Positions 8,672 through 28,097 are shown, counted from the first letter of the stretch. The stretch is 28,097 nucleotides of DNA from a virus (IMGVR_UViG_3300024517_000007), one strand, 5' to 3'. The notes: generated from the sequence alone by a model not told the origin. Made by a program: numbers and translations.

Positions 8672-9337
8672 ATGCCTATCTCTGCGCTTGCTGCAATGGG
8701 AATTATGGCGGGGGCTAGTGCTCTCGGTGCCGGAATCTCAGGTATCGGCCAAGCCCGTGCTGCCAAGAAGATGATGCTCACCGATGCCGAGAAGCGAGAG
8801 CTTGCGGATCTGGAGAAGCGTAGGCGTACCGGACAGTTGGGACTAACTGAGCAGGAACGTGGCCGCATGGAGCAGCAGTTCCTTGCCGAACAGGCAGGTG
8901 CCCAACGTGAACTGGAGGCTACGGCCCTACAGCAGGCCGCCGCCCGTGGTCTTGGTGGTGCCGTATCGGGTCGTGACATATTCCTCCAGGAGCAGGCGCA
9001 GGCGCAGGCCGAACGCGGTATGCGCCAGCAGCAGAATGTCCTAGTCCAGCAGGCAGAGGCCGCCGAGGCAGCGGCGGAGGAGGCCCGCATGCAGGCCATG
9101 CGCACCCAGCAGAAGGAAGCAGAAGCCGCACGTACGGCTGCCATCTGGGGGGCCGTTGGTGGTGCACTTGGGGCTGGTGCCCAGGGTGGAATGCAGGTCG
9201 CTGGGCAGGCGCAGGCGGCTGAAATGCAGGCCGCTCAGCTTGAAGCCCAGGCTCAGCAGACGAAGGACTTGATTCGTATGTACCAGTACAGCGGTGGTGG
9301 TCCCACCTTTGGTCGTTTCTCCACTGGAGGCTTCTGA
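8672..9337 (+). CDS. Internal virion / ejection protein candidate with an N-terminal Gly/Ala-zipper hydrophobic segment (221 aa)
   Basis: Strong SD (AAGGAGataaccacATG). The N-terminus is ISALAAMGIMAGASALGAGISGIG, followed by Q/A/E-rich helical sequence and a Gly-rich tail. Its position is equivalent to T7 gp13/gp14. Confidence 0.45.
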   Translation: MPISALAAMGIMAGASALGAGISGIGQARAAKKMMLTDAEKRELADLEKRRRTGQLGLTEQERGRMEQQFLAEQAGAQRELEATALQQAAARGLGGAVSGRDIFLQEQAQAQAERGMRQQQNVLVQQAEAAEAAAEEARMQAMRTQQKEAEAARTAAIWGAVGGALGAGAQGGMQVAGQAQAAEMQAAQLEAQAQQTKDLIRMYQYSGGGPTFGRFSTGGF

Positions 9338-11406
9338 TGGCTACACCCACTGGACGCAGGATGAACTACATAGAGCGTTACGCTCATGCGGCGGCGGCTG
9401 CATACCGTGTAGACCAGATCCGCACCACAATAGAAGCTGAACAGGATAGGGTCCAGTATTTGGACTCTCTCATTGGACAGGAACGCCAGACTCTTGCTGG
9501 GCTGCAGGATATCTTCCGCGCAGAAGACGTGGACTATTCCACCGCTGCCAAGCTTATCTCTCAGATGGAAGGAACCAAGGTTCTTATAGAAGAGACAAGG
9601 GCAGGGGCCACCGCCCGTGCTTCTGAGGCAGCCAAACTCCCTGCTGGCCTTCGTAACCCCAATTTGACTGGTGGCAACTACGCACTAGCCGCTGTGCAGG
9701 AGATCGCCGGTTCTGCTGGTATGACTCCCCAGAGGAAGAGAGCCATCCTCGAAGAGGCAACGAAGCGTGGTGTCTCTCCCGGTGACGTATCCCAACTTCG
9801 TTCCAGGCTTGATACTGTCAAGACTGTAACCGTCGGTGGCCTCACCGCCATGGAGCAAGAGGCAATCACTGAGGCCGAGAGAGCAGCACAGGAGGCCCAG
9901 GAGGCGGCATTCTTCGCTGGTCCCTCCGGTATCCGTGGTGGATTCGAGGGGATGGCCGAGGCCGACAACAGGAAGATGACTTCTTCAATGTTGAAGGAGG
10001 CCGGTCTTACAGAGCGTGCCAAGCTCCTTGAGGACTCGCAGTACGCGACTGAGGATGAGGCTCTCGACGCTGCCTTGGAGACGGTGCGCCTTACTGGTGA
10101 CCTACCTCCTGCCGGGATCGAGAGAGACATTTACGAGCGTGCACGCCAGTTGAAGGCGTATCGCAATGACCAGCGTGCGGACTTTGAGCAGGAGGTCCTT
10201 GACTCGCGTAAGCGGCTCGCCACCCTGGATAGAGAACGCTCCAAGATTGCCGATGCATATGATGACCCTCAGCAGGAATTCCTCCGTCGAGAGTTGACCG
10301 CACGTGGCTACACCTTCTACGATCGGGATTCCCCGGACGCGTGGAAGAATCAATACGTCCAATACCAGCAGTCTCCCGATTATGGGGTTTACCTCGGGGC
10401 GGCAGAACGATACAAGAAGGCCATTGAAGAAGACCGAGCCATAGAGCCTTCTACCCGCGCTGAGAACATAGTCACCTCTTACACGATGATGTTGGACAGA
10501 CGTGGCGAGTCTATGTCTGTCGACAAGATTCGTGGTCAGTTGGCTAAGGCCGGGATCAAGGGCAAGGAACAGGAGGATGCCATATCCTTCGTGATGGCCT
10601 ATTGGGAGGCTGGTGGTCCCGAGCAGGATCCGTCAATGCGTGAGATGGCGCGCAAGGATGAAGAGGCCCGCAAGAGGGAAGAGAACCTCCGCAGGCAGCG
10701 TGCAGAGGCCATGAAGCGGGAAGCTGACATCGCTCGCGACGTCACCACTCAGATGGAACGAGAGCAGGTAGCAGCCGTAGAGGACCTCCGTCGCGAACAG
10801 GCTACGATGGCCTTCCCCGCCAAGGAGTACGCCCGCCTCCGGGCCATGGGCAAGACGCCTGAGGAAGCCCGCGAGGCGGCAATGCGAGTCGCCGAGAAGG
10901 TTGAAACTGCCCCATCAGCAGCCAAGATAGTCATGAGCCCCGAATCTGTTCTTGAACGCCAGAGGCGCATAGACATCGAGCGCCCCAAGCGTGAAGCTGC
11001 TGAAATCCGGCAAATTCAATTCAAGACTGATGAGCCCGAAGGGGTTGACACTGTTGCTCCCGCTGCAACCCCTTCGGGCTCTGTTGCCAACGGCGTGATC
11101 GTTGACCCCAATGACCCCAAGCTGTCATATAGGAAGACACCAAGTGGTGACTCTTACATGGTGATGCGGGATGGGATCCCCTTCACGGCAGTCCGCAGGG
11201 ATGACCCCAGCCCACGTATGAGAAGGGCCTTCGAGTCCATCGAGAGCGTCGCTGGAGGTGGAGCCCCACTGCCTCCCTACCAGCCGCCCAAGACGCAACC
11301 CGAGGCACCGGAAGGGCCTTCCTTGCCCCCTCCCGCTCCCAAACCACCAACCCGCAAGAAGTGGAACCCGGTTACGGGCCGCATGGAAGAGGTGACCGGT
11401 GGCTGA
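9337..11406 (+). CDS. Internal core / ejection protein candidate (689 aa, highly charged helical, Pro-rich C-terminus)
   Basis: TGATG coupling to the upstream gene. Long E/R/A/K-rich stretches end in ...PLPPYQPPKTQPEAPEGPSLPPPAPKPP. Its position is equivalent to T7 gp15. Confidence 0.45.
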   Translation: MATPTGRRMNYIERYAHAAAAAYRVDQIRTTIEAEQDRVQYLDSLIGQERQTLAGLQDIFRAEDVDYSTAAKLISQMEGTKVLIEETRAGATARASEAAKLPAGLRNPNLTGGNYALAAVQEIAGSAGMTPQRKRAILEEATKRGVSPGDVSQLRSRLDTVKTVTVGGLTAMEQEAITEAERAAQEAQEAAFFAGPSGIRGGFEGMAEADNRKMTSSMLKEAGLTERAKLLEDSQYATEDEALDAALETVRLTGDLPPAGIERDIYERARQLKAYRNDQRADFEQEVLDSRKRLATLDRERSKIADAYDDPQQEFLRRELTARGYTFYDRDSPDAWKNQYVQYQQSPDYGVYLGAAERYKKAIEEDRAIEPSTRAENIVTSYTMMLDRRGESMSVDKIRGQLAKAGIKGKEQEDAISFVMAYWEAGGPEQDPSMREMARKDEEARKREENLRRQRAEAMKREADIARDVTTQMEREQVAAVEDLRREQATMAFPAKEYARLRAMGKTPEEAREAAMRVAEKVETAPSAAKIVMSPESVLERQRRIDIERPKREAAEIRQIQFKTDEPEGVDTVAPAATPSGSVANGVIVDPNDPKLSYRKTPSGDSYMVMRDGIPFTAVRRDDPSPRMRRAFESIESVAGGGAPLPPYQPPKTQPEAPEGPSLPPPAPKPPTRKKWNPVTGRMEEVTGG

Positions 11407-19561: not shown

Positions 19562-19670
19562 TATCGGCTCCCATCCTGGCGAGTTCCCTAAGCATCGTGG
19601 TCATCACGAGTGGCACCCCCACGAGAATGACCACGGCTGTTATCACGAGTTGGACGGTCGGGGGAAGCAT
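19554..19670 (-). CDS. Small membrane protein (38 aa from ATG 19670; alternative in-frame starts at 19712 and 19769)
   Basis: On the minus strand, AGGAGttcacATG precedes MLPPTVQLVITAVVILVGVPLVMTTML..., which contains one hydrophobic span. The SD+ATG is duplicated by the 42-bp tandem repeat. ATG 19769 (71 aa) has no SD. Confidence 0.4.
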   Translation of the reverse strand: MLPPTVQLVITAVVILVGVPLVMTTMLRELARMGADND

Positions 19671-19729
19671 GTGAACTCCTGTTGTAGCGAGTTGAACGGT
19701 CGGGGGAAGCATGTGAACTCCTGTTGTCG
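19646..19729. repeat. Two tandem copies of a 42-bp unit (2 mismatches), plus a partial third copy upstream in + coordinates
   Basis: Read directly. Copy 1 (19646-19687) is cgagttgGacggtcgggggaagcatgtgaactcctgttgtAg. Copy 2 (19688-19729) is cgagttgAacggtcgggggaagcatgtgaactcctgttgtCg. Confidence 0.9.
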
Positions 19730-19836
19730 CGAAGCAGGTCCATGGGGTCACTGGGAAGGGGCTGGTCATCGGGGAGGGAGAGGGCCTTGGCGAGAAGCAG
19801 AAGGCCAGAGAGGTTTGTCTTCATTGGTGTGGTCCC

Positions 19837-20875: not shown

Positions 20876-22882
20876 TTAGACTCCCTGCTCATCGAGCAAT
20901 TCTTCGAGTGTTTTGATGCTTATGCCGTCGTTGTCCCCAGACTGAACGGTGGGGGCCTTGGTTCCTTTGCGGTGTCCTACGGAGGCAGGATTCACACGCC
21001 CACTTGTCACGGCTTCGTCCATAGCCTTGGTGGTGTTCACCCCTTCCAGGTGCAGCCTGCCTGGACGACACTTATCGAACACGCCTCCCGCTGTGGTGTC
21101 ATGTTCCGTTATGGGCTGCTGAACAATGTCAGACACCTCCTCATAGAAGCCACTCATGTTGTATCCCACAGTCGCCTTGAAGTCTGTAACCCCGTCCTTC
21201 TTACGCTGGGTCTCTTTGGCCTCTTTGGACATTTTGGATGAGGATCCACGCCCAGTTATGGACCTGCGGAGTGAGTTCACGTACTTCACGGACTTCCGGT
21301 CGCCGTACAGTATATCTCCACGGAGTTGTGCGTTATCCATGGCGTACACGTCGGTGAAGACCTTGTCTACGGATGACGGGATGCTCTCAGGTGAATGGAA
21401 CATGGCCCCGAGGTCTGAATAATCAGTGGGGGAGAACGCGGGATTTTTGGATACGCAGGTGGGGGTGTGCCTGCCCCCGTGATCCGAGTGGTGGGCGAAT
21501 ATATATATTATGCCTTCTTGGCCCCTTATGGCTATCCACCTATTGTTCATTACACCTCGGGTCTCCTCTTCTTTAAAGAGACCCGAGGTGTAATGCGAGT
21601 TGACACACTTCCTCGACCAATTCTTCAGGGAATTCGCCACAGTTTTATCAGACAGCACAGAATGTGAGGCACGGAAGGAAGCCACTGAGTATCCAGCGTC
21701 CATCCACTTGGATACCTGAACCTCTATGGCAGAAGCCATGGAACCAAGAACGAAGGGCCTACAGTCATCACATGAAGCCATCCAGCAGGTCAGGTGGGTG
21801 TGATTGGAATGACCAGCACCACCGTGGGACCAAGTAGTTACCAGATGGGGTGCCCTGTTACACCTGACATTGAACGCTCTCCCACGGGCAGCATGTACGG
21901 CATCAGCCAACTGCTGCTCCACATCCTTATCACTGTCGGGGTCAATATCGAGCCCCAGCCCACCAAGGAGGTGGGCAAACTTATCGATCTTGAAGTTTGC
22001 CCTGACTTCCTTCTCTGCGTGTCCTTCTATACGCCTCTTGTATTTATCCCAATGTTCATCCTCGTCATTGGACACGTCACCCTTAGGCTTCCGAGCCACG
22101 GCATTGGAATCAATGTCTTCCAGCACCTCAACGAGTTCCTTGCTGATAAACAGGCTCTTCCACGTGGCAACACTTATGTGCGTGATGCCTTCTATCGCGT
22201 TGGGGAGCGACTCATTGTCTATATCGAATCCGAACTCCTTGTACCTCCAATGCTCACTGGTGCTGAACTTGAACCCAGCGTCTATGCGTATGCTATCGGA
22301 TTTGAATACAAGTTCACCGGGGCGCTTATCGCTGGACCCGACAGGCTTGCGGAATACAACGTAGTTTTTAGCGCTCTTGCTGTTATAGGCTATGACCGAT
22401 GGGCTCATCTTCTGAGAGCGCATCCAGTCGTTGACTTCTTGCAAATCAGAACGAGTTTTAGCGTCGAACTCTATCGCCAAAAACTTCTCGTGGGACACTA
22501 TGTTTGAGTCTTCGACCCTGACTACATAGCTCCAATAAGTCTTGCCGCTCTTATTGACCTTCTCCTTAGCCCCAGGGTGATGGTGGGAATCGCCATAACA
22601 TCCGAAGTGGAACAGGTCCCCACTGACCTTATAGAACACCCCCTTGCCCTTGGGGGCATAACCGTTGTTGCTGAATGGACAACCGGCCTTTAGGTTGTTC
22701 CAACCATCGGGGTTCTTGACACAATAGGTGTCAGGATCAGCAACTATGTCTTCAACGGAGGTGGGGTTCAGTTCGCCCATAGCGCGCCCACCGAGGCGTC
22801 CTATGAGGCTGTATCTACTGAGCCCGAATCTGTTTATCTCTGAATCATTGACGTCAACAACAGGGCGTGATACACTGTCCAT
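20876..22882 (-). CDS. Large Cys/His-rich early protein (668 aa), putative replication initiator (possible HUH-type nickase and/or primase-like zinc-finger remnant)
   Basis: It is the first gene of the leftward arm, with SD GGAG 6 nt before the ATG. CPFSNNGYAPKGKGVFYKVSGDLFHFGCYGDSHHH resembles a degenerate DnaG CHC2 finger (CPFHNEKTPSFTV...FYHCFGCGAHG). The histidine cluster SHGGAGHSNHTHLTCW is of the H-x-H / three-His type seen in Rep and relaxase proteins. There is also a GFDIDNE (DxD) motif. I saw no Walker A motif and no polymerase motifs. The functional call is inference. Confidence 0.35.
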   Translation of the reverse strand: MDSVSRPVVDVNDSEINRFGLSRYSLIGRLGGRAMGELNPTSVEDIVADPDTYCVKNPDGWNNLKAGCPFSNNGYAPKGKGVFYKVSGDLFHFGCYGDSHHHPGAKEKVNKSGKTYWSYVVRVEDSNIVSHEKFLAIEFDAKTRSDLQEVNDWMRSQKMSPSVIAYNSKSAKNYVVFRKPVGSSDKRPGELVFKSDSIRIDAGFKFSTSEHWRYKEFGFDIDNESLPNAIEGITHISVATWKSLFISKELVEVLEDIDSNAVARKPKGDVSNDEDEHWDKYKRRIEGHAEKEVRANFKIDKFAHLLGGLGLDIDPDSDKDVEQQLADAVHAARGRAFNVRCNRAPHLVTTWSHGGAGHSNHTHLTCWMASCDDCRPFVLGSMASAIEVQVSKWMDAGYSVASFRASHSVLSDKTVANSLKNWSRKCVNSHYTSGLFKEEETRGVMNNRWIAIRGQEGIIYIFAHHSDHGGRHTPTCVSKNPAFSPTDYSDLGAMFHSPESIPSSVDKVFTDVYAMDNAQLRGDILYGDRKSVKYVNSLRRSITGRGSSSKMSKEAKETQRKKDGVTDFKATVGYNMSGFYEEVSDIVQQPITEHDTTAGGVFDKCRPGRLHLEGVNTTKAMDEAVTSGRVNPASVGHRKGTKAPTVQSGDNDGISIKTLEELLDEQGV
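21551..21607. repeat. Hairpin element copy A (TACACCTCGGGTCTC-N12-GAGACCCGAGGTGTA, then atgcgagTTGACACA), inside the 668-aa CDS
   Basis: Read directly. The arms at 21551-21565 and 21578-21592 are perfectly complementary and identical to those of copy B at 27628-27671. The 3' flank GAGTTGACACA is shared. The 42-nt hairpin equals 14 codons and is translated as ...YTSGLFKEEETRGV... Confidence 0.9.
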
Positions 22883-22951
22883 ATCGGACTCCAGTTAGGT
22901 GGTGGTTCGATCATAAACCCCGGTGTTGGTAGCACGCGGGGTTCACTCATA

Positions 22952-22981
22952 TTTATAACACGATAGGACACCTAACGTCAA
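22952..22981 (-). promoter_or_regulatory. Sigma70-like early promoter for the leftward arm (TTGACG-N18-TATAAA with TGn extension)
   Basis: The minus strand reads TTGACG (22981-22976), ttaggtgtcctatcgTGt, then TATAAA (22957-22952). Downstream lie a 7-bp leader hairpin (22916-22922 / 22937-22943) and the motif CCACCACCTAACTGGAGTCC (22905-22886) ending 3 nt before the ATG at 22882. Confidence 0.6.
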
Positions 22982-22998
22982 CTGTGTGAGCTGACACA
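22981..22998. promoter_or_regulatory. Operator-like palindrome ACTGTGTGAGCTGACACA (core TGTGT-gAGCTg-ACACA)
   Basis: It is nearly identical to 27671-27688 (ACTGTGTGAGTTGACACA) and lies directly upstream of the -35 of the leftward promoter. Further TGACAC/ACACAG half-site-like sequences occur at 23011-23026. Confidence 0.5.
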
Positions 22999-23056
22999 TA
23001 TCCCAAGGATTGACACCACAACACAGCAGCTTATGTGGCGCATCACACACCGGGCG

Positions 23057-23100
23057 TGGTATAATGTATTGACAAATAGGACCACCCCCTTATGGAGTCC
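23057..23100 (+). promoter_or_regulatory. Extended -10 promoter P2 (TGgTATAAT), followed by leader motif CCACCCCCTTATGGAGTCC
   Basis: TGgTATAAT lies at 23057-23065 and has no convincing -35. The motif at 23082-23100 contains the GGAG that serves as SD for ATG 23106. The architecture and spacing match P1 at 1069-1113. Confidence 0.55.
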
Positions 23101-23105
23101 ATCGG

Positions 23106-23594
23106 ATGCTTTGCCCCCATTGTGATGGGCCTACTAAGGTCGTTCTAACGGTCCCGGCCAATAAGCGCACAGATAAGCGCCATTATAGGAACCGGAAGTG
23201 CAAAGCTTGTGGCAAGGGGCTTGTGACCCTGGAACTTCCAGCCATTGAACTGCGTGAACTCGACCAGAGGGCAGGCAACCGGACACTCACCGATGGTGTG
23301 GGTGCACCACTGCCGACACGTGATAACAATATAGACCTGCTGGACATCGAATCTGAATTGGAGACCCTTCTCCGTCCGTCACTGGATGCCATCAATGAAG
23401 TGCTGACCTCCGACAAGGCTGTCTCCCGGTACAAGGCGGAGACCGCACGTTGGTTGGTCGCAGATAGAAGGGAATACAGGAGGACGCTGGCAGAACAGCA
23501 TGGAGCCCAAGAGTCTGATGATCCCTCAATCAGGGAACTTGCCCGCGTGTTGGCATTGGTCCCGGACCCCATGACCGGGACAGATGGAGAATGA
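23106..23594 (+). CDS. NrdR-type zinc-ribbon protein with a helical C-terminal domain (162 aa); candidate small terminase or DNA-binding regulator
   Basis: MLCPHCDGPTKVVLTV...YRNRKCKACGKGLVTLE follows the NrdR N-terminal ribbon pattern MxCPxC..TKV...RRRxCxxCxxxxTTxE. It is the first gene of the rightward arm, two genes upstream of the large terminase. Confidence 0.5.
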   Translation: MLCPHCDGPTKVVLTVPANKRTDKRHYRNRKCKACGKGLVTLELPAIELRELDQRAGNRTLTDGVGAPLPTRDNNIDLLDIESELETLLRPSLDAINEVLTSDKAVSRYKAETARWLVADRREYRRTLAEQHGAQESDDPSIRELARVLALVPDPMTGTDGE

Positions 23595-23824
23595 TATGCC
23601 CTGCATGCCTTGAAGATACGGCGCTGGTCCTGGAAACGAGGCAACCCTCACATTCCACGTCAAGGGCGGCCACCTGTAGACCCAAGATAAGGGACCTCTC
23701 CATAAACTTCCCGGATATGGTGTACAGGAGGAGAAGGTGTAGGGCCTGTGGGCATGTGACCCAAACTATAGAGGTTCCGCTGGAGGACTTCGATATAGCG
23801 CTCAACATGGTGCCTGCCCAGTGA
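23591..23824 (+). CDS. NrdR-type zinc-ribbon protein (77 aa), paralogous in ribbon motif to the preceding gene
   Basis: MICPACLEDTALVLETR...VYRRRRCRACGHVTQTIEV. It has an ATGA overlap upstream and a GTGA overlap with the terminase start downstream. Confidence 0.5.
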   Translation: MICPACLEDTALVLETRQPSHSTSRAATCRPKIRDLSINFPDMVYRRRRCRACGHVTQTIEVPLEDFDIALNMVPAQ

Positions 23825-25389
23825 CGTACGTCCCGCCATCAGTGCCGCCGCAACTGACGCATAAGGTGTCCAGGCTTGTGGGTGACCTGGACCTATTCGC
23901 GAGAATACATAAAGTTCAGGACAAGGACAGTAAGCGCCCGATCCCGTGGGACACGGCACCTATGCAGGAGAAGATATTTAAGGCTGTAGAAGCTGGACAC
24001 AAGAGAATCGCATGCATAAAGGCACGGCAGGTGTACTGCACAACCGGGTGCAAGATGGTCCTGCACCACATGGCGTACACGACCCCACATGCCGCCATGC
24101 ACGCCGTGGTGTCCATGCGTGCGGATTCAGCATCTATGCTCTTGGACGACAACCGCAGATGGCTTGAAGACCCACCAGCCCTATTGCAGCGTCCAATCAA
24201 GACCAAGGCCCGCAACAACATAGTATACGAAGATACCGGGGCTTCGATAAGGTCATTCACCTCGCGTTCTGCCACCGGGCTGCGCTCATTCACGCCAGTG
24301 GCGGCAGTCATAAGTGAGGCTGCGTTTGCACCCGATCTTGAAGAGGTCATAGCACAGGCAGATGCCGCAGTCGGTGACGGGCTGTTGATAATCGAATCCA
24401 CGGCAGACAACCCGGCTGACTTCTTCTCACAACTCATCAGGGGTGCGCCTGAGAACGGTTGGCATCTTATAACCATGTGGTGGTGGGAACACCCGGCGTA
24501 CTGTGATTCACCCGATGTGATTCCGGCAGACTTTGAGGCTTCTCTCACGGATTACGAGAAGGGTATCCGAGACGAGTACGTCCTGTCACTCGGGCAACTT
24601 CACTGGAGACGTAGGACAGAGAAGCGCATCGGGTCTTCATACAAATTCCGCCGCGAATACCCAGCCTGCTTGGATGATTGCTTCCTTGACCGAGAGGGAG
24701 GCTACTTCGAGGATGAACTCCTTGGAGACATACACGTCGTGGAGCACAACCTCCACGGCAACCAGCACGGTCGGGAGATAGAGCCTCCACACCCACACGA
24801 TAGATACGTCATGGGCGTGGACATCGGTGGTGGCGTTGGTGGAGACTATTCCGCCTTGTGCGTAGTGTCCGTGTCGACACGGCAGGTGGTCTACACGGAA
24901 CGCAATAACCGAATCACTCCTGCCGCATGGGCGCACAGGGTGATTCAGGTGGCATCCAGGTACAACCAAGCCCTCGTGCTTGGCGAGTCCAACAACCACG
25001 GCCATGCGTTCTTGTTGGAAGCCACGACCTGCGGATACCGCAACTTGTGGGCTAATCCCAAGACCGGGAAGCCCTGGGTGACAACGCTTCAATCCAAGCT
25101 TGACGCCTTCGACACTCTGCGCGAGTCCCTCCAGATCATCCAGATCCTGGATCGCCCCACGTGGCTGGAGCTTCGGTCGCTTACCATCCCACAAGGTAAG
25201 GTAGCACCAGAGGCCCCTAAGGGAGGTCATGATGACGCGGCAATGGCCTGTGCACTGGCCTATAGGTGTCTTCGAGACATACCCCCGTCTTGGAGAACAC
25301 AAGCAGCAGTCTCCCAGAGAACCCGTATCGATGACCTGATATCCGCCTCCCGCGCAAGAAGAATCAGGTCTTCCGCCCTCCCGTTCTAA
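23821..25389 (+). CDS. terL: Terminase large subunit
   Basis: Walker A-like IKARQVYCTTG (the K-x-RQ-x-G-x-T type common in TerL). Walker B-like AAVISEAAF. RNase H-like nuclease motifs VMGVDIGGGVGGDYSALCVV, LGESNNHGHAF and GGHDDAAMACALAY. It lies directly upstream of the portal gene. The GTG start overlaps the upstream stop. Confidence 0.85.
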   Translation: MTYVPPSVPPQLTHKVSRLVGDLDLFARIHKVQDKDSKRPIPWDTAPMQEKIFKAVEAGHKRIACIKARQVYCTTGCKMVLHHMAYTTPHAAMHAVVSMRADSASMLLDDNRRWLEDPPALLQRPIKTKARNNIVYEDTGASIRSFTSRSATGLRSFTPVAAVISEAAFAPDLEEVIAQADAAVGDGLLIIESTADNPADFFSQLIRGAPENGWHLITMWWWEHPAYCDSPDVIPADFEASLTDYEKGIRDEYVLSLGQLHWRRRTEKRIGSSYKFRREYPACLDDCFLDREGGYFEDELLGDIHVVEHNLHGNQHGREIEPPHPHDRYVMGVDIGGGVGGDYSALCVVSVSTRQVVYTERNNRITPAAWAHRVIQVASRYNQALVLGESNNHGHAFLLEATTCGYRNLWANPKTGKPWVTTLQSKLDAFDTLRESLQIIQILDRPTWLELRSLTIPQGKVAPEAPKGGHDDAAMACALAYRCLRDIPPSWRTQAAVSQRTRIDDLISASRARRIRSSALPF

Positions 25390-25406
25390 ATAGAAGGAAC
25401 CTCCAG

Positions 25407-27113
25407 ATGCTTGAACCCAATCACATCAGGGACATAGTTAACACGCATGACGTCTACTGGGATAGTCGCCGAGATCGGATGCGCGAATACCGTAGGCTTT
25501 ATCTGACTGAATTCTGGGAATCCGAGACCTATCCTTCTCTGGACGGGATTCTTAGAACAGAGGTCCCCAAGGCATACGCCGTGGTGGAGTCCTATCTCGG
25601 TTCCCTGTTCGCCAAGAACCCTTCTGTCAGGGTCGAGCCCGATATCCGGGATAGGGGCAACCCGGAAGTAGCACAGGCCACCGCGAATCGCTATCTGCTC
25701 ACCATCCGGGAGCAGCTGGAGGACGCAACCCGGTTGGCACTCATATATCCGTGCAGCTTCTTGAAGCTCGCCCCAGAAGAGAACGTGGATCCCTTGAAGC
25801 GTGTCTCATGCGCTGCACTCCCGCCTTGGGAGGTCATCGTGGACTCCACGGCGGCTTCCTGGGACCAGCAGCGATACGTGGGGCACACATACCTGATGCC
25901 ACTGCCTGAGGCAAGGGAGAGGTACGGGAAGCCCGAGGACGCCTACCGGACGCGCAATTACACGAAGTGGATAGAAGCAGCTGGGGTAACAGGGACCACG
26001 AGCCGATCCTCCACCATAATGATGGGAGACACCACTTCTGACACTGACAGGTGGATCAGGATCGTGGAGGTCTACGACATAGTGGATGACAACCTCCTAG
26101 TGTGGAGTCCAGACTACGCCGATGGGGAGGAGTTCCTGTTCGAGGGAGTCAAGGTGCAGGTCGGGGCGCTTGACCCTGACGCTGATGCCGAGTCTGAGAC
26201 CCCTGAGGGAGAGATCCAGCATGAGACAACTGGGATCCCCTACAAGTCCGCAAGTGGCCGCCCGGTCATACCTGTCATACCGATATACTTCTCTCGTGAC
26301 CCTGATACCCCTCTCCGTGGATACAGCCTCATTCATAGGTCTGCAGACCAGTTCAGGGAAATGAACGTCATGCGGACCTATCAGGCACAGGGCGTGCGGC
26401 GCATGGCCCGCCAGTGGCTCATGAGGGCTGGGTTCCTGTCTGAGGACGCAGCCGCCAAGCTCACCCAGGGCATCGATGGTGAGATAATCGAGGTGGACCT
26501 CCCTCCTGGGACTCCCCTTGAAGGGAACATCATGCCTGCCCCACAGGCACCCATCCCAGGCGACATAGCCGCGTACGCCCTCACGATCCAGGGGGACATA
26601 GCCGATGCGGGCCTTCTGGCTCCATTCACACGGGGCGAGGTCACCAAGTCCACCGCAACTGAGCAGAACCTCCTTGCTGCATACACCAGTAGCGAAGTGT
26701 CGAGGATGGCGCGGACCCGTGATGCAGCCATAACTGCTGTGGCCCACACCTACAACGTGATGTTGTCTGTGGTGCTGGGTGATGATGCGGAGCCTCTGGC
26801 TCTCCCCAACCCCGTTGGACCCACCATCCTGTCCGCAGACGACTTGACTGGTGACTTCGGTTATTGGGCCGTGGACCAGGGCACCACCCCCATGAGCGAC
26901 TTCGCCAAACAGCAGTCTCTCGAACGCCTCGCCCCCATACTGGTGCAACTTGGGGCCGACCCCAGGATCATCCTCGAAGAGATAGTGCGAGTCTTCCAGC
27001 TTCCCGAGAACCTCGCTGTCCCCGCCCCTCCGCCTGAACCCATGCCTGAACCTGGGGCTGAATCCACAGTCCCAGAACAGCAGATGCCCGTCCTCCCATT
27101 CCCCGGAGTGTAA
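25407..27113 (+). CDS. Portal protein (568 aa)
   Basis: Size and its position immediately after TerL and ahead of the scaffold and capsid genes. The C-terminus is acidic and Pro-rich. No family-specific motif was verified. Confidence 0.7.
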   Translation: MLEPNHIRDIVNTHDVYWDSRRDRMREYRRLYLTEFWESETYPSLDGILRTEVPKAYAVVESYLGSLFAKNPSVRVEPDIRDRGNPEVAQATANRYLLTIREQLEDATRLALIYPCSFLKLAPEENVDPLKRVSCAALPPWEVIVDSTAASWDQQRYVGHTYLMPLPEARERYGKPEDAYRTRNYTKWIEAAGVTGTTSRSSTIMMGDTTSDTDRWIRIVEVYDIVDDNLLVWSPDYADGEEFLFEGVKVQVGALDPDADAESETPEGEIQHETTGIPYKSASGRPVIPVIPIYFSRDPDTPLRGYSLIHRSADQFREMNVMRTYQAQGVRRMARQWLMRAGFLSEDAAAKLTQGIDGEIIEVDLPPGTPLEGNIMPAPQAPIPGDIAAYALTIQGDIADAGLLAPFTRGEVTKSTATEQNLLAAYTSSEVSRMARTRDAAITAVAHTYNVMLSVVLGDDAEPLALPNPVGPTILSADDLTGDFGYWAVDQGTTPMSDFAKQQSLERLAPILVQLGADPRIILEEIVRVFQLPENLAVPAPPPEPMPEPGAESTVPEQQMPVLPFPGV

Positions 27114-27115
27114 CC

Positions 27116-27622
27116 ATGCCTATCGAATACGGACCCTCAACCCCCATGACCAACGACATACCTGAGGACCTGCTCATGGCAGCCAACGAGGCTGACGCCA
27201 TGATCGGGGACGAGTTGGCCTCTCTCATGCCCCCGTTTGAGAAGCCCATCAACATCAAGGTTCTGGATGCCCTTGCCAAGGCAACGGCTTCTGTCGCCAA
27301 GGTGATGGGCATGGATGTGGTGCCCGAGAAGTACACCGAGCCCACCACCGAGTTGGATCCGGACCTCGTGCGCTTCCTCGCTATGATTGAGGCCGCAGCC
27401 ACCGACTATGGTGTCTCACTTCCCATACCTCTCTCTGAGATACGGGACGAGGCTGGCCTCACCTCTCTCACCGCCTTCCTGACTGAGCTTGCCAGAGACA
27501 AGGATTTCAAGGAGTTCCTCGATATGCCTGCTCCCGAGGAGGAAGAGGTTGAGATCAGTGTTGAAGCACCCATGCCCGGTGGCGGTGAAGAGTTCGATTT
27601 CGCCTCCAGGATGTCTCGATAA
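27116..27622 (+). CDS. Highly acidic protein (168 aa), function unknown (assembly factor or possibly a second scaffold-like protein)
   Basis: ATG lies 2 nt after the portal stop and is preceded by GGAG. The product is rich in D/E throughout (…DMPAPEEEEVEISVEAPMPGGGEEFDF…). Confidence 0.55.
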   Translation: MPIEYGPSTPMTNDIPEDLLMAANEADAMIGDELASLMPPFEKPINIKVLDALAKATASVAKVMGMDVVPEKYTEPTTELDPDLVRFLAMIEAAATDYGVSLPIPLSEIRDEAGLTSLTAFLTELARDKDFKEFLDMPAPEEEEVEISVEAPMPGGGEEFDFASRMSR

Positions 27623-27627
27623 TCAAC

Positions 27628-27688
27628 TACACCTCGGGTCTCTTACATAAGAAGAAGAGACCCGAGGTGTACTGTGTGAGTTGACACA
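27628..27688. repeat. Hairpin element copy B (TACACCTCGGGTCTC-N14-GAGACCCGAGGTGTA, then the palindrome CTGTGTGAGTTGACACA)
   Basis: Read directly. The arms lie at 27628-27642 and 27657-27671, and the stem extends to 17 bp via TT/AA. It starts 6 nt after the stop of the acidic-protein gene and may act as a terminator, although no U-tract follows. TTGACA (27681-27686), N16, then CATACT (27703-27708) could be a promoter. Confidence 0.9.
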
Positions 27689-28097
27689 ATGGCATACACC
27701 AGCATACTTGGCAGGTTGAAGAAGGCATTCGGGTTTGGGGTCGCCAGACCTTCAGTTATCCCCAAGACGCGGGCATCCAAATACGTGTCCCGCTTCGGTG
27801 GGGACCCTATGAAGGAATTGAAGGCCGCCATCGAGAACAAACAGCCTGTCTCCTTCTTCTACAATGACAAGTGGCAGGAGGAAGGAACAACCGGGAAGTA
27901 CGGCCAGCGCGTCGGTAACCCGCATGCCATTTGGCGTGACAAAAACGGAACCACCTACTTGCACTTGTACGTGGATCCTCAATCAGCTTCCGCCACGGGG
28001 TCTCTCCCTGGGTGGAGAACATTCATTATTGGACGCATCCAGAATGTCTCCGTGCTTGATCTTGGCACGAGACTGTTTGGACGCCCTGTCCAATTCG
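27689..28097 (+). CDS. Standalone WYL-like domain protein, partial in the window (continues as 128-195 after circularisation; 158 aa from ATG 27689, 118 aa from ATG 27809)
   Basis: The frame is open from ATG 27689 to the window end and is absent from the ORF track only because there is no stop before the edge. PVSFFYNDK...GQRVGNPHAIWRDKNGTTYLHLYVDP...GWRTFIIGRIQNVSVLD follows the WYL-domain pattern (R-x-x-x-P, W/T-Y-L, R-x-F-x-x-x-R-I). ATG 27809 has the better SD (GGTGGGGA). Confidence 0.5.
   Translation, partial: MAYTSILGRLKKAFGFGVARPSVIPKTRASKYVSRFGGDPMKELKAAIENKQPVSFFYNDKWQEEGTTGKYGQRVGNPHAIWRDKNGTTYLHLYVDPQSASATGSLPGWRTFIIGRIQNVSVLDLGTRLFGRPVQF

What the first reader, a model, noticed from the sequence alone, without database searches (positions are those of the whole stretch)
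21551..27688. Perfect 15-bp-stem hairpin with conserved 3' flank present twice, once inside a protein-coding sequence
21551-21607 and 27628-27688 share identical arms (TACACCTCGGGTCTC / GAGACCCGAGGTGTA), the same orientation and a shared 3' flank (GAGTTGACACA). The loops differ in sequence and length (12 nt versus 14 nt). Conserved arms with free loops suggest selection on structure or on a stem-binding protein. Copy B is intergenic, just after the acidic-protein gene. Copy A is exactly 42 nt (14 codons) and is translated within the 668-aa early protein. A hairpin followed by a conserved single-stranded flank is the geometry recognised by HUH nickases and relaxases. It could equally be a packaging signal, a transcription/processing signal, or a small hairpin insertion that landed in frame.
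Basis: partly seen in the sequence, partly recalled or inferred. Interest (0 to 1): 0.8.

Follow-up and report, generated by a model that had tools for sequence, protein, structure and literature searches.

The report
Conserved hairpin inside phage replication gene
A long, perfectly paired DNA/RNA hairpin is written into the middle of an uncultured phage's replication gene and repeated between its structural genes, and comparison with related phages shows that evolution preserves the fold rather than the encoded peptide, so it is most likely a recognition site (probably a replication start signal) for the phage's own early proteins.

Summary
The window is a circular 27,970-bp phage genome. It has two near-identical hairpins: A (21548-21595, 18-bp stem, inside the 668-aa gene g24) and B (27628-27671, 17-bp stem, intergenic). 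Shuffled sequence never gave stems above 13 bp.

Every g24 homologue with DNA in hand, down to 33% identity, keeps hairpin A at the same codon position. The inner 9 pairs never change. The outer stem differs between phages but stays paired: 12 pairs change on both sides, and 0 of 500 shuffles match. The left arm is read in two different frames. So the nucleic acid fold is selected, not the peptide.

Copies within one genome share the same outer stem. Structural relatives without g24 lack the element.

g24 is related to P4-family primase and prim-pol proteins. My best reading (about 0.4) is a cognate replication origin or priming site carried inside the initiator gene, with secondary copies in the late region, as in lambda ori/O and SPP1 oriL/oriR. 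A sense-strand RNA role (about 0.3) is not excluded. The HUH-nickase, terminator and REP/MITE readings find no support.

The parts
21548..21595 (-). Hairpin A. It has an 18-bp perfect stem (CATTACACCTCGGGTCTC / GAGACCCGAGGTGTAATG) and a 12-nt loop. It lies inside g24 and codes residues about 430-445 (HYTSGLFKEEETRGVM) in a variable, indel-rich linker.
   Evidence: It is conserved with compensatory changes in all g24 homologues with DNA in hand. The covariance model scores it 70.4 bits on the minus strand.
21594..21607 (+). Flank motif copy A, TGCGAGTTGACACA. It overlaps the last two stem bases. On the g24 sense strand it lies 5' of the hairpin and codes C-V-N-S-H.
27628..27671 (+). Hairpin B. 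It has a 17-bp perfect stem (TACACCTCGGGTCTCTT / AAGAGACCCGAGGTGTA) and a 10-nt loop. It is intergenic, between the acidic 168-aa gene and the 158-aa WYL-like gene.
   Evidence: The covariance model scores it 62.4 bits on the plus strand. In the 97%-identical relative L036 the same site carries a different outer stem.
27675..27688 (+). Flank motif copy B, TGTGAGTTGACACA. It directly abuts the ATG at 27689. Its TTGACA also scores as a -35-like hexamer (TTGACA-16-CATACT).
22985..22998 (+). Solitary motif copy C, TGTGAGCTGACACA, without a hairpin. It lies immediately upstream of the -35 of the leftward g24 promoter, in the divergent control region.
   Evidence: (D9).
20876..22882 (-). g24, a 668-aa early protein that carries hairpin A. 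It belongs to a rare family: 12 hits among 1.84 billion representative proteins. Its N-terminal domain is shared with P4-family primase-helicase proteins. Its C-terminal two-thirds are shared with a Prim-Pol-domain protein. It is a putative replication initiation protein.
22952..22981 (-). Putative sigma-70-type promoter of g24: TTGACG, an 18-nt spacer, then TGTTATAAA. It is conserved in L010 and L085.
   Evidence: Read directly from the sequence; alignment. It was not found by the simple scan.
23106..23594 (+). g25, a 162-aa zinc-ribbon protein. It is transcribed divergently from g24, directly precedes TerL, and co-occurs with g24 in all four lineages. It is the second candidate for the protein that binds the element.

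Best explanation
The hairpin is a structure-selected cis-acting element that belongs to the phage's early g24/g25 gene module. A protein of that module most likely recognises it.

The most likely mechanism is as follows. g24 is a primase-family replication initiation protein, and hairpin A is its cognate origin or priming signal. The signal sits in the linker-coding middle of its own gene, so protein and target are always inherited together. When the region is opened by transcription or by a replication fork, the sense strand (the non-template, or lagging-strand template) folds into the 17-22-bp stem-loop. The protein binds this stem-loop, with the adjacent TGYG-N6-CACA motif as an auxiliary duplex site. 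Copies in the late-gene region (B here, two tandem copies in another lineage) act as secondary initiation, priming or fork-control sites. They are kept identical to the master copy by gene conversion and by selection for the same recognition.

Shown here:
- the fold is conserved and covaries;
- conservation does not depend on the reading frame;
- copies within a genome are identical while genomes differ;
- the element occurs only in phages that carry g24;
- g24 has remote primase-family relatives.

Inferred, not shown: binding by g24, folding as single-stranded DNA, and any replication function.
For: 1. Structure is under selection.
- 14 distinct copies from about 6 phage lineages align to a 22-pair helix. 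89.9% of cells are paired, against 30-47% when the partners are slid. 12 pairs change on both sides, and 0 of 500 shuffles reach the observed values.
- Pairs 7-14 show up to four pair types, with only 2 unpaired cells, both at the outer edge of the stem (pair 8:55).

2. The constraint is on nucleic acid, not peptide.
- The left arm is read as (AC)C-TCG-GGT-CTC (TSGL) in the window and as ACT-CGG-GTC-TCT (TRVS) in lineage 3. There the element is 44 nt, which is not a multiple of 3.
- Proteins are 33-37% identical, yet the inner CTCGGGTCT/AGACCCGAG is invariant.

3. It folds, rather than acting as a duplex dimer site. The spacing between the invariant half-sites varies from 12 to 18 nt.

4. It is tied to the g24 module.
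- Every g24 homologue with DNA in hand carries it at the same position.
- A covariance model found no copy in 17 loci of structural relatives (portal 66-81% identical) that lack g24.
- Lineage 4, whose structural proteins are too diverged for tblastn, keeps g24, g25 and hairpin A.

5. Matching within a genome points to a phage-specific reader.
- Window A and B share the same arms.
- In lineage 3, A and B1 are identical over 44 of 44 nt in sense orientation.
- Window and L036 are about 97% identical around B, yet the hairpin interior is replaced by the variant seen in hairpin A of L010.

6. g24 is replication-related.
- Its N-terminal domain matches proteins that carry TIGR01613 (P4-family primase), DUF5906 and Pox_D5 domains.
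- Its C-terminal part matches a Prim-Pol protein.

7. There are layout precedents.
- Lambda ori lies in the middle of gene O and is translated (PMC7466680).
- SPP1 oriL lies inside initiator gene 38, and a second site, oriR, lies in an intergenic segment of the late region (PMC6316719).
- The RSF1010 primase RepB' recognises hairpins ssiA and ssiB on complementary strands (PMC8567376).

8. The motif also sits at the g24 promoter, as initiator operators often do. This last comparison rests on my own knowledge of iteron plasmids.
Against: - No biochemical or read-end data exist.
- The function of g24 rests only on remote domain sharing. No catalytic motif was identified, and the AlphaFold model was unusable (pLDDT 35.6).
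- The element is a single palindrome, not the iterons plus AT-rich region of classical origins. The nearby 14-nt A/T run (21498-21511, the longest in the genome) is not conserved in distant homologues.
- All interior non-Watson-Crick pairs are G:T on the sense strand. Copies within a genome match in sense orientation. Both facts fit an RNA hairpin just as well.
- Relatives without g24 have unrelated hairpins at similar late intergenic positions (L045, L069-71). This hints at a generic RNA role for the B-type sites.
- Part of the inner-stem invariance could come from the conserved peptide E-T-R encoded by the right arm.
- Lineage 4 shows only one copy in the 22 of 25 kb that I could see.
Confidence: 0.4

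Rival explanations
1. The element is a sense-strand RNA hairpin. It folds in the leftward (g24) and rightward (late) transcripts. There it acts as a processing, stability or regulatory site: an RNase III target, a 3'-end protector between cistrons, or the binding site of a phage RNA-binding regulator that coordinates early and late expression.
For: - Every interior non-Watson-Crick pair is G:T (G:U) on the sense strand and would be A:C on the other strand: L011 A, and L083 B1/B2 and L031 B2 with two each.
- Loops and whole hairpins match between copies only in sense orientation.
- All copies lie in transcribed regions. B-type copies sit just after a stop codon.
- Unrelated long hairpins occupy similar late intergenic positions in relatives without g24.
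- The g24 leader also carries a conserved, covarying stem-loop, so RNA structure matters in this transcript.
- Folding energies are -40 to -46 kcal/mol, with z-scores of -4.75 to -7.0 on the sense strands.
Against: - A generic host RNase or terminator gives no reason for the copies of one genome to share an outer stem that differs between genomes. It also gives no reason for the element to be confined to phages that carry g24.
- RNA-binding proteins usually read loops or bulges. Here the loops vary and the perfect stem is invariant.
- The wobble evidence rests on only 2-3 independent events. It is equally expected for DNA folding on the non-template or lagging-strand template.
- Cleavage inside g24 mRNA would destroy the message.
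- There is no Rfam match.
Confidence: 0.3
2. The element is a selfish or neutral palindromic mini-element, REP/MITE-like. It copies itself by template switching or gene conversion. It persists where it is tolerated (a protein linker, intergenic spacers) and has no function for the phage. Perfect stems are maintained by quasipalindrome correction.
For: - The repeated unit has sharp borders: motif plus hairpin, about 59 nt, in lineage 3.
- B-type copies sit at different places in different lineages: g29/g01 here, g02/MCP in lineage 3, and upstream of the g24 promoter in L010.
- Patch-like replacement of B is seen in L036.
- The distant homologue P0014 lacks the segment.
Against: - Copy A has stayed at the same codon position while g24 diverged to 33% identity, and its inner stem is invariant.
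- There are only 1-3 copies per genome, with no spread to other sites or to relatives lacking g24.
- There are no copies in 185,579 bacterial and archaeal genomes beyond 32 scattered single hits.
- No transposase is present.
Confidence: 0.1
3. The element is the packaging recognition (pac) site for a TerS-like function of the zinc-ribbon protein g25, which always sits directly upstream of TerL.
For: - g25 precedes TerL in all four lineages.
- In lineage 4 the conserved N-terminal 154 residues are joined to a different C-terminal part next to a highly diverged TerL. This is the pattern expected of a TerS with a DNA-binding domain and a TerL-binding domain.
- pac sites often lie in coding DNA. 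This point rests on my own knowledge of P22, SPP1 and P1.
Against: - Known pac sites are not long perfect hairpins, and there is normally one per genome.
- The invariably present copy is inside g24, across the divergent promoter from g25.
- g25 has no TerS family match.
- No terminus information is available.
Confidence: 0.07
4. The hairpin plus single-stranded flank is the nick site of an HUH or Rep-type nuclease, acting as a rolling-circle origin or as a transposon or relaxase site.
For: The geometry fits: a hairpin plus a conserved flank. There are precedents for origins inside rep genes (phiX174 gene A, P2 gene A, pT181 repC; my own knowledge).
Against: - No HUH, Rep, relaxase or Y1-transposase domain was found in any protein of the early region by Pfam, PHROGs or NCBIfam.
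- The conserved H-x-H in g24 (H100, H102) has a non-hydrophobic middle residue. It sits in a Cys/His cluster that looks like a zinc site.
- Loops are not conserved.
- The flank is missing at hairpin A of L091.
Confidence: 0.05
5. The hairpins are transcription terminators or insulators, placed before promoter or operator motifs.
For: - L010 U and the lineage 3 B copies lie between an upstream gene and a downstream promoter-like element, in the order hairpin-motif-promoter.
- B follows a stop codon.
Against: - There is no T-run after the stem on either strand, and the scan does not list them.
- A lies in the middle of an essential-looking ORF.
- This does not explain sequence matching within a genome.
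Confidence: 0.05

Closest known systems
Phage SPP1 oriL/oriR (and lambda ori inside gene O)
   Same: A cis replication site lies inside the initiator's own gene and is translated as part of the protein. In SPP1 a second, similar site lies kilobases away in an intergenic segment of the late structural region, and both are bound by the same initiator (PMC6316719, PMC7466680). Here hairpin A sits in a variable linker of the putative initiator g24, and B sits in the late region.
   Different: Those origins are direct repeats (iterons) plus an AT-rich unwinding region, read as duplex DNA. Here there is one long perfect palindrome with a variable loop, and no conserved AT-rich element. g24 is unrelated in sequence to O or gp38.
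RSF1010 (IncQ) ssiA/ssiB priming signals read by primase RepB'
   Same: Two near-identical hairpin signals lie on complementary strands. A dedicated plasmid-encoded primase recognises them in single-stranded form, using the hairpin plus short flanks. Priming starts in a GTG just 3' of the hairpin (PMC8567376). Here, judged by loops and wobbles, A and B are on opposite strands. B is followed by (C)TGTGTGAG.
   Different: The ssi hairpins are short (nt 7-27 of a 40-nt site) and lie side by side within oriV. Here the stems are 17-22 bp, the copies are 6 kb apart, and one is inside a gene. g24 has no detectable RepB' or AEP catalytic motifs.
Lambda-type nutL/nutR (boxA-boxB) antitermination sites
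   Same: An identical hairpin plus a flanking box is present once in each of two divergent operons. The copies are the same within a phage, differ between related phages, and co-vary with a phage protein (my own knowledge).
   Different: boxB has a 5-bp stem with a conserved pentaloop close to the promoters. Here the stems are 17-22 bp, the loops vary, and the distances from the promoters are 1.3 and 4.6 kb. The flank lies on opposite sides in the two transcripts. No N-like protein is present, and lineage 4 shows only one copy.
T7-type RNase III processing hairpins / intercistronic stabiliser hairpins (REP in malEFG)
   Same: These are stable stem-loops between cistrons of a long phage operon. 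The stem length is near the RNase III substrate range (my own knowledge).
   Different: Those sites need no sequence identity between copies and no link to a particular replication gene. One copy here lies inside an ORF.
pT181 / phiX174 / P2-type rolling-circle origins and IS200/IS605 ends (HUH or Rep nucleases)
   Same: These are hairpin-containing sites, some of them inside the rep gene (my own knowledge).
   Different: No such nuclease is encoded, and there is no conserved nick sequence in the loop.

Membership tests
Intrinsic (Rho-independent) terminator | GC-rich stem-loop followed directly by a run of T/U | tested here: not met
   There is no T-run after either hairpin on either strand. 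Neither hairpin is listed by the terminator scan.
Intrinsic (Rho-independent) terminator | Lies at the end of a transcription unit | tested here: not met
   A lies at codon about 430 of a 668-codon ORF. B lies between co-oriented genes.
HUH/Rep rolling-circle origin or IS200/IS605-type end | A cognate HUH-Y (or Rep_trans) nuclease is encoded nearby | tested here: not met
   Pfam, PHROGs and NCBIfam scans of all early proteins found no such domain. This is a sequence-level test only.
HUH/Rep rolling-circle origin or IS200/IS605-type end | A conserved nick sequence in the loop or the immediate flank | tested here: not met
   Loops differ in sequence and length across copies (12-18 nt between the invariant half-sites). 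The flank motif is absent at L091 A.
Iteron-type origin inside the initiator gene (lambda O, SPP1 gp38) | The site lies within the initiator gene, in a region tolerant of insertions | tested here: met
   A lies in the most indel-rich stretch of the g24 alignment. That g24 is an initiator is itself an inference.
Iteron-type origin inside the initiator gene (lambda O, SPP1 gp38) | Several direct repeats (iterons) next to an AT-rich unwinding element | tested here: not met
   There are no direct repeats at A or B. The 14-nt A/T run 37 nt from A is not conserved. Iteron-like repeats of 10-11 bp occur only in L010, and elsewhere in that locus.
Iteron-type origin inside the initiator gene (lambda O, SPP1 gp38) | The initiator binds the site and the site supports replication | not testable with these tools
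   This needs EMSA or footprinting and replication assays.
RSF1010-type single-strand initiation (ssi) signal | Hairpin signals on complementary strands, read by a dedicated primase | tested here: inconclusive
   Loop and wobble asymmetry place A and B on opposite strands, but the flank motif is in direct orientation. g24 shares only a non-catalytic N-terminal domain with P4-family primases.
Lambda nut (boxA/boxB) site | Short stem with a conserved loop, boxA on the 5' side in both transcripts, and an N-type protein | tested here: not met
   Stems are 17-22 bp and loops vary. The flank is 5' in one transcript and 3' in the other. No N-like protein was found.
RNase III processing site | About 20 bp of double-stranded RNA in a transcript | tested here: inconclusive
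   Stems are 17-22 bp on the sense strands. Cleavage cannot be tested here.
REP / MITE-type dispersed palindromic repeat | Many dispersed copies in the host or element genome | tested here: not met
   There are 1-3 copies per phage genome. Only 32 scattered single hits to the core hairpin were found in 185,579 genomes, with no family.
Any described RNA family (Rfam 15) | A match at the gathering score | tested here: not met
   The whole window gave no match.

The most novel reading that the evidence does not exclude
The hairpin is the recognition signal of a previously undescribed kind of phage replication initiator, the g24 family. This family is distantly linked to P4-type primases and to prim-pol proteins. 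The initiator would start DNA synthesis on a folded single-stranded stem-loop encoded inside its own gene. The gene copy would act as a master copy that overwrites satellite copies elsewhere in the genome by gene conversion, so the specificity of protein and sites co-evolves as one portable module.
Probability: 0.2. Interest if true: 0.8.

Novelty: new variant of a known kind. Interest (0 to 1): 0.62.

Why it matters
If the reading is right, this is a clear natural case of a gene carrying two overlapping messages. The nucleic-acid fold wins over the peptide: the same stem is translated in two different frames in related phages.

It would also mark the replication start signal and its reader in a widespread group of uncultured aquatic phages of about 25-30 kb. 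These phages have no cultured relative and no recognisable replication genes.

The pattern of identity within genomes and difference between genomes gives a ready-made set of natural specificity variants. These can be used to test protein-hairpin recognition.

If the RNA reading is right instead, it would be a phage-specific RNA signal shared by early and late operons.

Tried and rejected
- A search for the exact 15-nt arm in IMG/VR gave only 9 single-arm chance hits and no hairpins.
- Megablast of the region and tblastn of the portal and g24 against INPHARED phages, and tblastn of g24 against PLSDB plasmids, found nothing. The host and the nearest cultured relative remain unknown.
- A scan of genome contigs with the g24 profile found nothing, so there is no prophage and no host clue.
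- A scan of genome contigs for the core hairpin gave 32 unrelated single hits.
- Other IMG/VR hits to the loose core pattern are short, unrelated hairpins.
- The AlphaFold2 model of g24 from a 6-sequence alignment was unusable (pLDDT 35.6), so I ran no fold search.
- Profile and sequence searches of the PDB gave nothing for g24.
- A profile search of the 5.8-billion-protein set added no new homologues.
- The AT-rich unwinding element idea fails. The longest A/T run of the genome is 37 nt from A, but g24 uses ATA for Ile throughout, and the run is not conserved.
- An internal translation start after A (GAGGTG-TA-ATG in the window and L010) is not conserved in other lineages.
- A promoter downstream of the flank motif is plausible only for B (TTGACA-16-CATACT, inside the next ORF). 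It is not plausible for A.
- Loop 'flip-flop' by inversion is not needed. The loops can equally be explained by one-sided decay of an older, longer TCTTCTTC/GAAGAAGA stem (L087).
- An invertible segment between A and B is unlikely. No recombinase is present, and three independent assemblies show the same arrangement.

Full report
**1. What is in the window**

The window is a circular assembly. Bases 1-127 repeat at 27971-28097. The same 27,970-bp genome was assembled independently from two ENA samples and one SRA run.

- A leftward early operon holds g24 (668 aa, 20876-22882) and then four small ORFs.
- A divergent control region spans 22883-23105.
- A long rightward operon holds two zinc-ribbon proteins (g25, g26), TerL, the portal, an acidic 168-aa protein, a 158-aa WYL-like protein, a 279-aa protein, the major head protein, tail and internal proteins, and an endolysin.

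Nothing similar exists among 50,697 deposited phage genomes or 72,556 plasmids.

**2. The observation**

Both hairpins exist as described, and both stems are longer than reported. A is a perfect 18-bp stem with a 12-nt loop (21548-21595). B is a perfect 17-bp stem with a 10-nt loop (27628-27671).

Sixty dinucleotide-preserving shuffles of the genome never gave a perfect stem above 13 bp. The folding z-scores on the sense strands are -7.0 and -4.75.

A is translated within g24 as HYTSGLFKEEETRGVM. B starts 5 nt after a stop codon and ends 17 nt before the next ATG.

The shared flank belongs to a 14-nt motif, TG(T/C)G-AGYTGA-CACA. A third copy, without a hairpin, lies at 22985-22998.

The loops resemble each other only if A is read on the minus strand and B on the plus strand, that is, each on its own sense strand. 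The flank, however, is in direct orientation.

**3. Relatives**

g24 is a rare protein. An exhaustive HMMER search of 1.84 billion representative proteins gave 12 hits. I obtained DNA for homologues of 84%, 79% and 33-40% identity.

Every one of these carries a perfect or near-perfect hairpin at the homologous codon position.
- The inner stem CTCGGGTCT/AGACCCGAG never varies.
- The outer 5-12 bp differ between lineages and are always complementary. The variants are TACAC; TACGGA; ATGATAA; ATAGTAA; ACTATTAA; ACTTGCAGAC.

On an alignment of 14 distinct copies, a 22-pair helix is 89.9% paired, against 30-47% when the partners are slid. Twelve pairs change on both sides, and no shuffle out of 500 reaches the observed values.

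In the window the core of the left arm is read as TCG-GGT-CTC. In lineage 3 it is read one base out of register, as CGG-GTC-TCT, and the element is 44 nt long, which is not a multiple of three. The peptide therefore changes (TSGL versus TRVS) while the nucleotides stay.

The most distant homologue, P0014 (21% identity, with a Prim-Pol domain), lacks the segment.

The distance between the invariant half-sites ranges from 12 to 18 nt. This argues against a rigid dimer binding linear duplex DNA, and for a folded stem.

**4. Copies within genomes**

A covariance model built from the alignment finds exactly the known copies and no others in 421 kb:
- two in the window;
- two in L010 (A, plus one just upstream of the g24 promoter);
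- three in lineage 3 (A, plus two tandem copies between the 279-aa gene homologue and the major head gene);
- one in the 22 of 25 kb seen of lineage 4.

It finds none in 17 loci of phages that share the structural genes (portal 66-81% identical) but lack g24.

Copies within one genome share the same outer stem. In IMGVR_UViG_3300043394_000375, A and B1 are identical over all 44 nt when each is read on its sense strand.

Around B, the window and its 97%-identical relative L036 differ almost only inside the hairpin. There are three compensated base pairs, a different loop, and a 15-nt insert that carries a second motif copy. The L036 variant equals the one in hairpin A of L010. Such a patch points to templated conversion and to pressure for the copies to match, not to slow drift.

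A generic host factor would not demand matching. A phage-encoded, sequence-specific reader would.

**5. Which strand, which molecule**

All interior non-Watson-Crick pairs are G:T on the sense strand. There is one in L011 A, and two each in L083 B1/B2 and L031 B2. None is A:C. This amounts to 2-3 independent events, so it is suggestive only.

It fits an RNA hairpin. It fits equally well a DNA hairpin on the non-template strand, which is also the lagging-strand template if replication starts between A and B. The tools here cannot separate these two.

**6. The flank motif**

In L010 the upstream hairpin carries the motif on both sides, as the outer part of a larger palindrome. In lineage 4 a motif-loop-motif palindrome sits at the same promoter-proximal place.

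In the window the solitary copy abuts the -35 of a conserved sigma-70-type g24 promoter, TTGACG-18-TGTTATAAA. In lineage 3 the motif copies lie upstream of a TATAAT element in front of the major head gene.

The motif thus looks like a duplex operator used together with the hairpin. Its reader is unknown. The candidates are g24 and the zinc-ribbon protein g25, which accompanies g24 in all lineages.

**7. What g24 is**

No family model matches g24.
- Residues about 7-136 are homologous to the N-terminal region of proteins whose remainder is a P4-family primase C-terminal/D5-type helicase (TIGR01613, DUF5906, Pox_D5).
- Residues about 296-661 are homologous to the C-terminal part of a protein with an N-terminal Prim-Pol domain.

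It is the only replication-like gene in the genome. The structure prediction failed (pLDDT 35.6).

**8. Interpretation**

Firmly supported: a functional, fold-selected cis element that travels with the g24/g25 module and is kept uniform within a genome.

Most likely mechanism (about 0.4): a cognate origin or priming signal embedded in the initiator gene, with satellite copies in the late region. The layout mirrors SPP1 oriL (inside gene 38) and oriR (late intergenic region), and lambda ori in gene O (PMC6316719, PMC7466680). The hairpin-plus-flank geometry on opposite strands recalls RSF1010 ssiA/ssiB and primase RepB' (PMC8567376).

Main rival (about 0.3): an RNA signal in both operons.

Weaker rivals:
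- a selfish palindrome (0.1);
- a pac site for a TerS-like g25 (0.07);
- an HUH nick site (0.05);
- a terminator or insulator (0.05).

The membership tests show that the element fits none of the known families fully. It has no T-run, no nuclease, no iterons, no conserved loop, no dispersed family and no Rfam match.

**9. Verdict**

The finding is real and more interesting than a pair of repeats. A long hairpin has been maintained inside a coding sequence through deep divergence, with concerted evolution of its copies. Its function is inferred, not shown.

I rate it a new variant of a known kind (a cis site inside an initiator gene; hairpin-type initiation signals). Interest is about 0.6.

Noticed in passing
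window 22916-22943 (minus strand; g24 5' leader): The g24 leader holds a stem-loop, AACCCCG-(14 nt)-CGGGGTT. It is conserved in all lineages, with compensatory changes (AGTCCCG...CGGGACT in lineage 3). A GGAG ribosome site follows it. It may be a regulatory RNA structure of the early transcript.
   Followed up: partly
window 11032-11081: A third long perfect hairpin of unrelated sequence: a 16-bp stem (GAGCCCGAAGGGGTTG) and an 18-nt loop, inside the 689-aa gene 9337-11406. The folding z-score is -3.6. No relative covering this gene was in hand, so conservation is unknown.
   Followed up: partly
window 19646-19732 (and 19624-19707): A 42-bp tandem repeat of 2.1 copies (95% match) in the small early genes. 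The Logan assembly of the same phage breaks at about this point.
   Followed up: no
window 23057-23065 and 1069-1077: Two identical extended -10 elements, TGGTATAAT. One lies in front of the rightward operon and one in front of the major head gene. They are the only plus-strand matches to TGNTATAAT in the genome.
   Followed up: partly
L010 875-919: Four and a half iteron-like tandem repeats of 10-11 bp (GTCACCACTT) lie in the divergent region between g25 and the next ORF of the 84% relative. The window has nothing comparable. In lineage 3 a related AAGTGGCAC repeat (2 copies, 19-bp period) follows the B hairpins (L083 3459-3497).
   Followed up: partly
L085/L086 (Ga0208543_1000022, 50,611 bp): The contig holds two copies of the g24 homologue 25,135 bp apart, so it is a concatemeric assembly of a 25.1-kb phage. 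It keeps the g24 | g25-TerL synteny and has a tape-measure-like protein. Apart from g24 (79%) and g25 (57%), its proteins are too diverged from the window's for tblastn. This suggests the early module has been exchanged between phages.
   Followed up: partly
window 21498-21511: The longest pure A/T run of the genome (AATATATATATTAT, 14 nt; the next longest is 10) lies 37 nt from hairpin A, inside g24. It is not conserved in distant homologues.
   Followed up: yes
window 27689-28097 continuing to 1-195: The 158-aa ORF just after hairpin B has a weak WYL-domain match (E = 0.004, below the Pfam cut-off). It is conserved in most structural relatives.
   Followed up: no
L092 635-1774: In one lineage 3 relative an N6/N4 DNA methyltransferase gene (PF01555) lies directly upstream of the g24 homologue, in the place held by the zinc-ribbon gene in the other lineages.
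   Followed up: no
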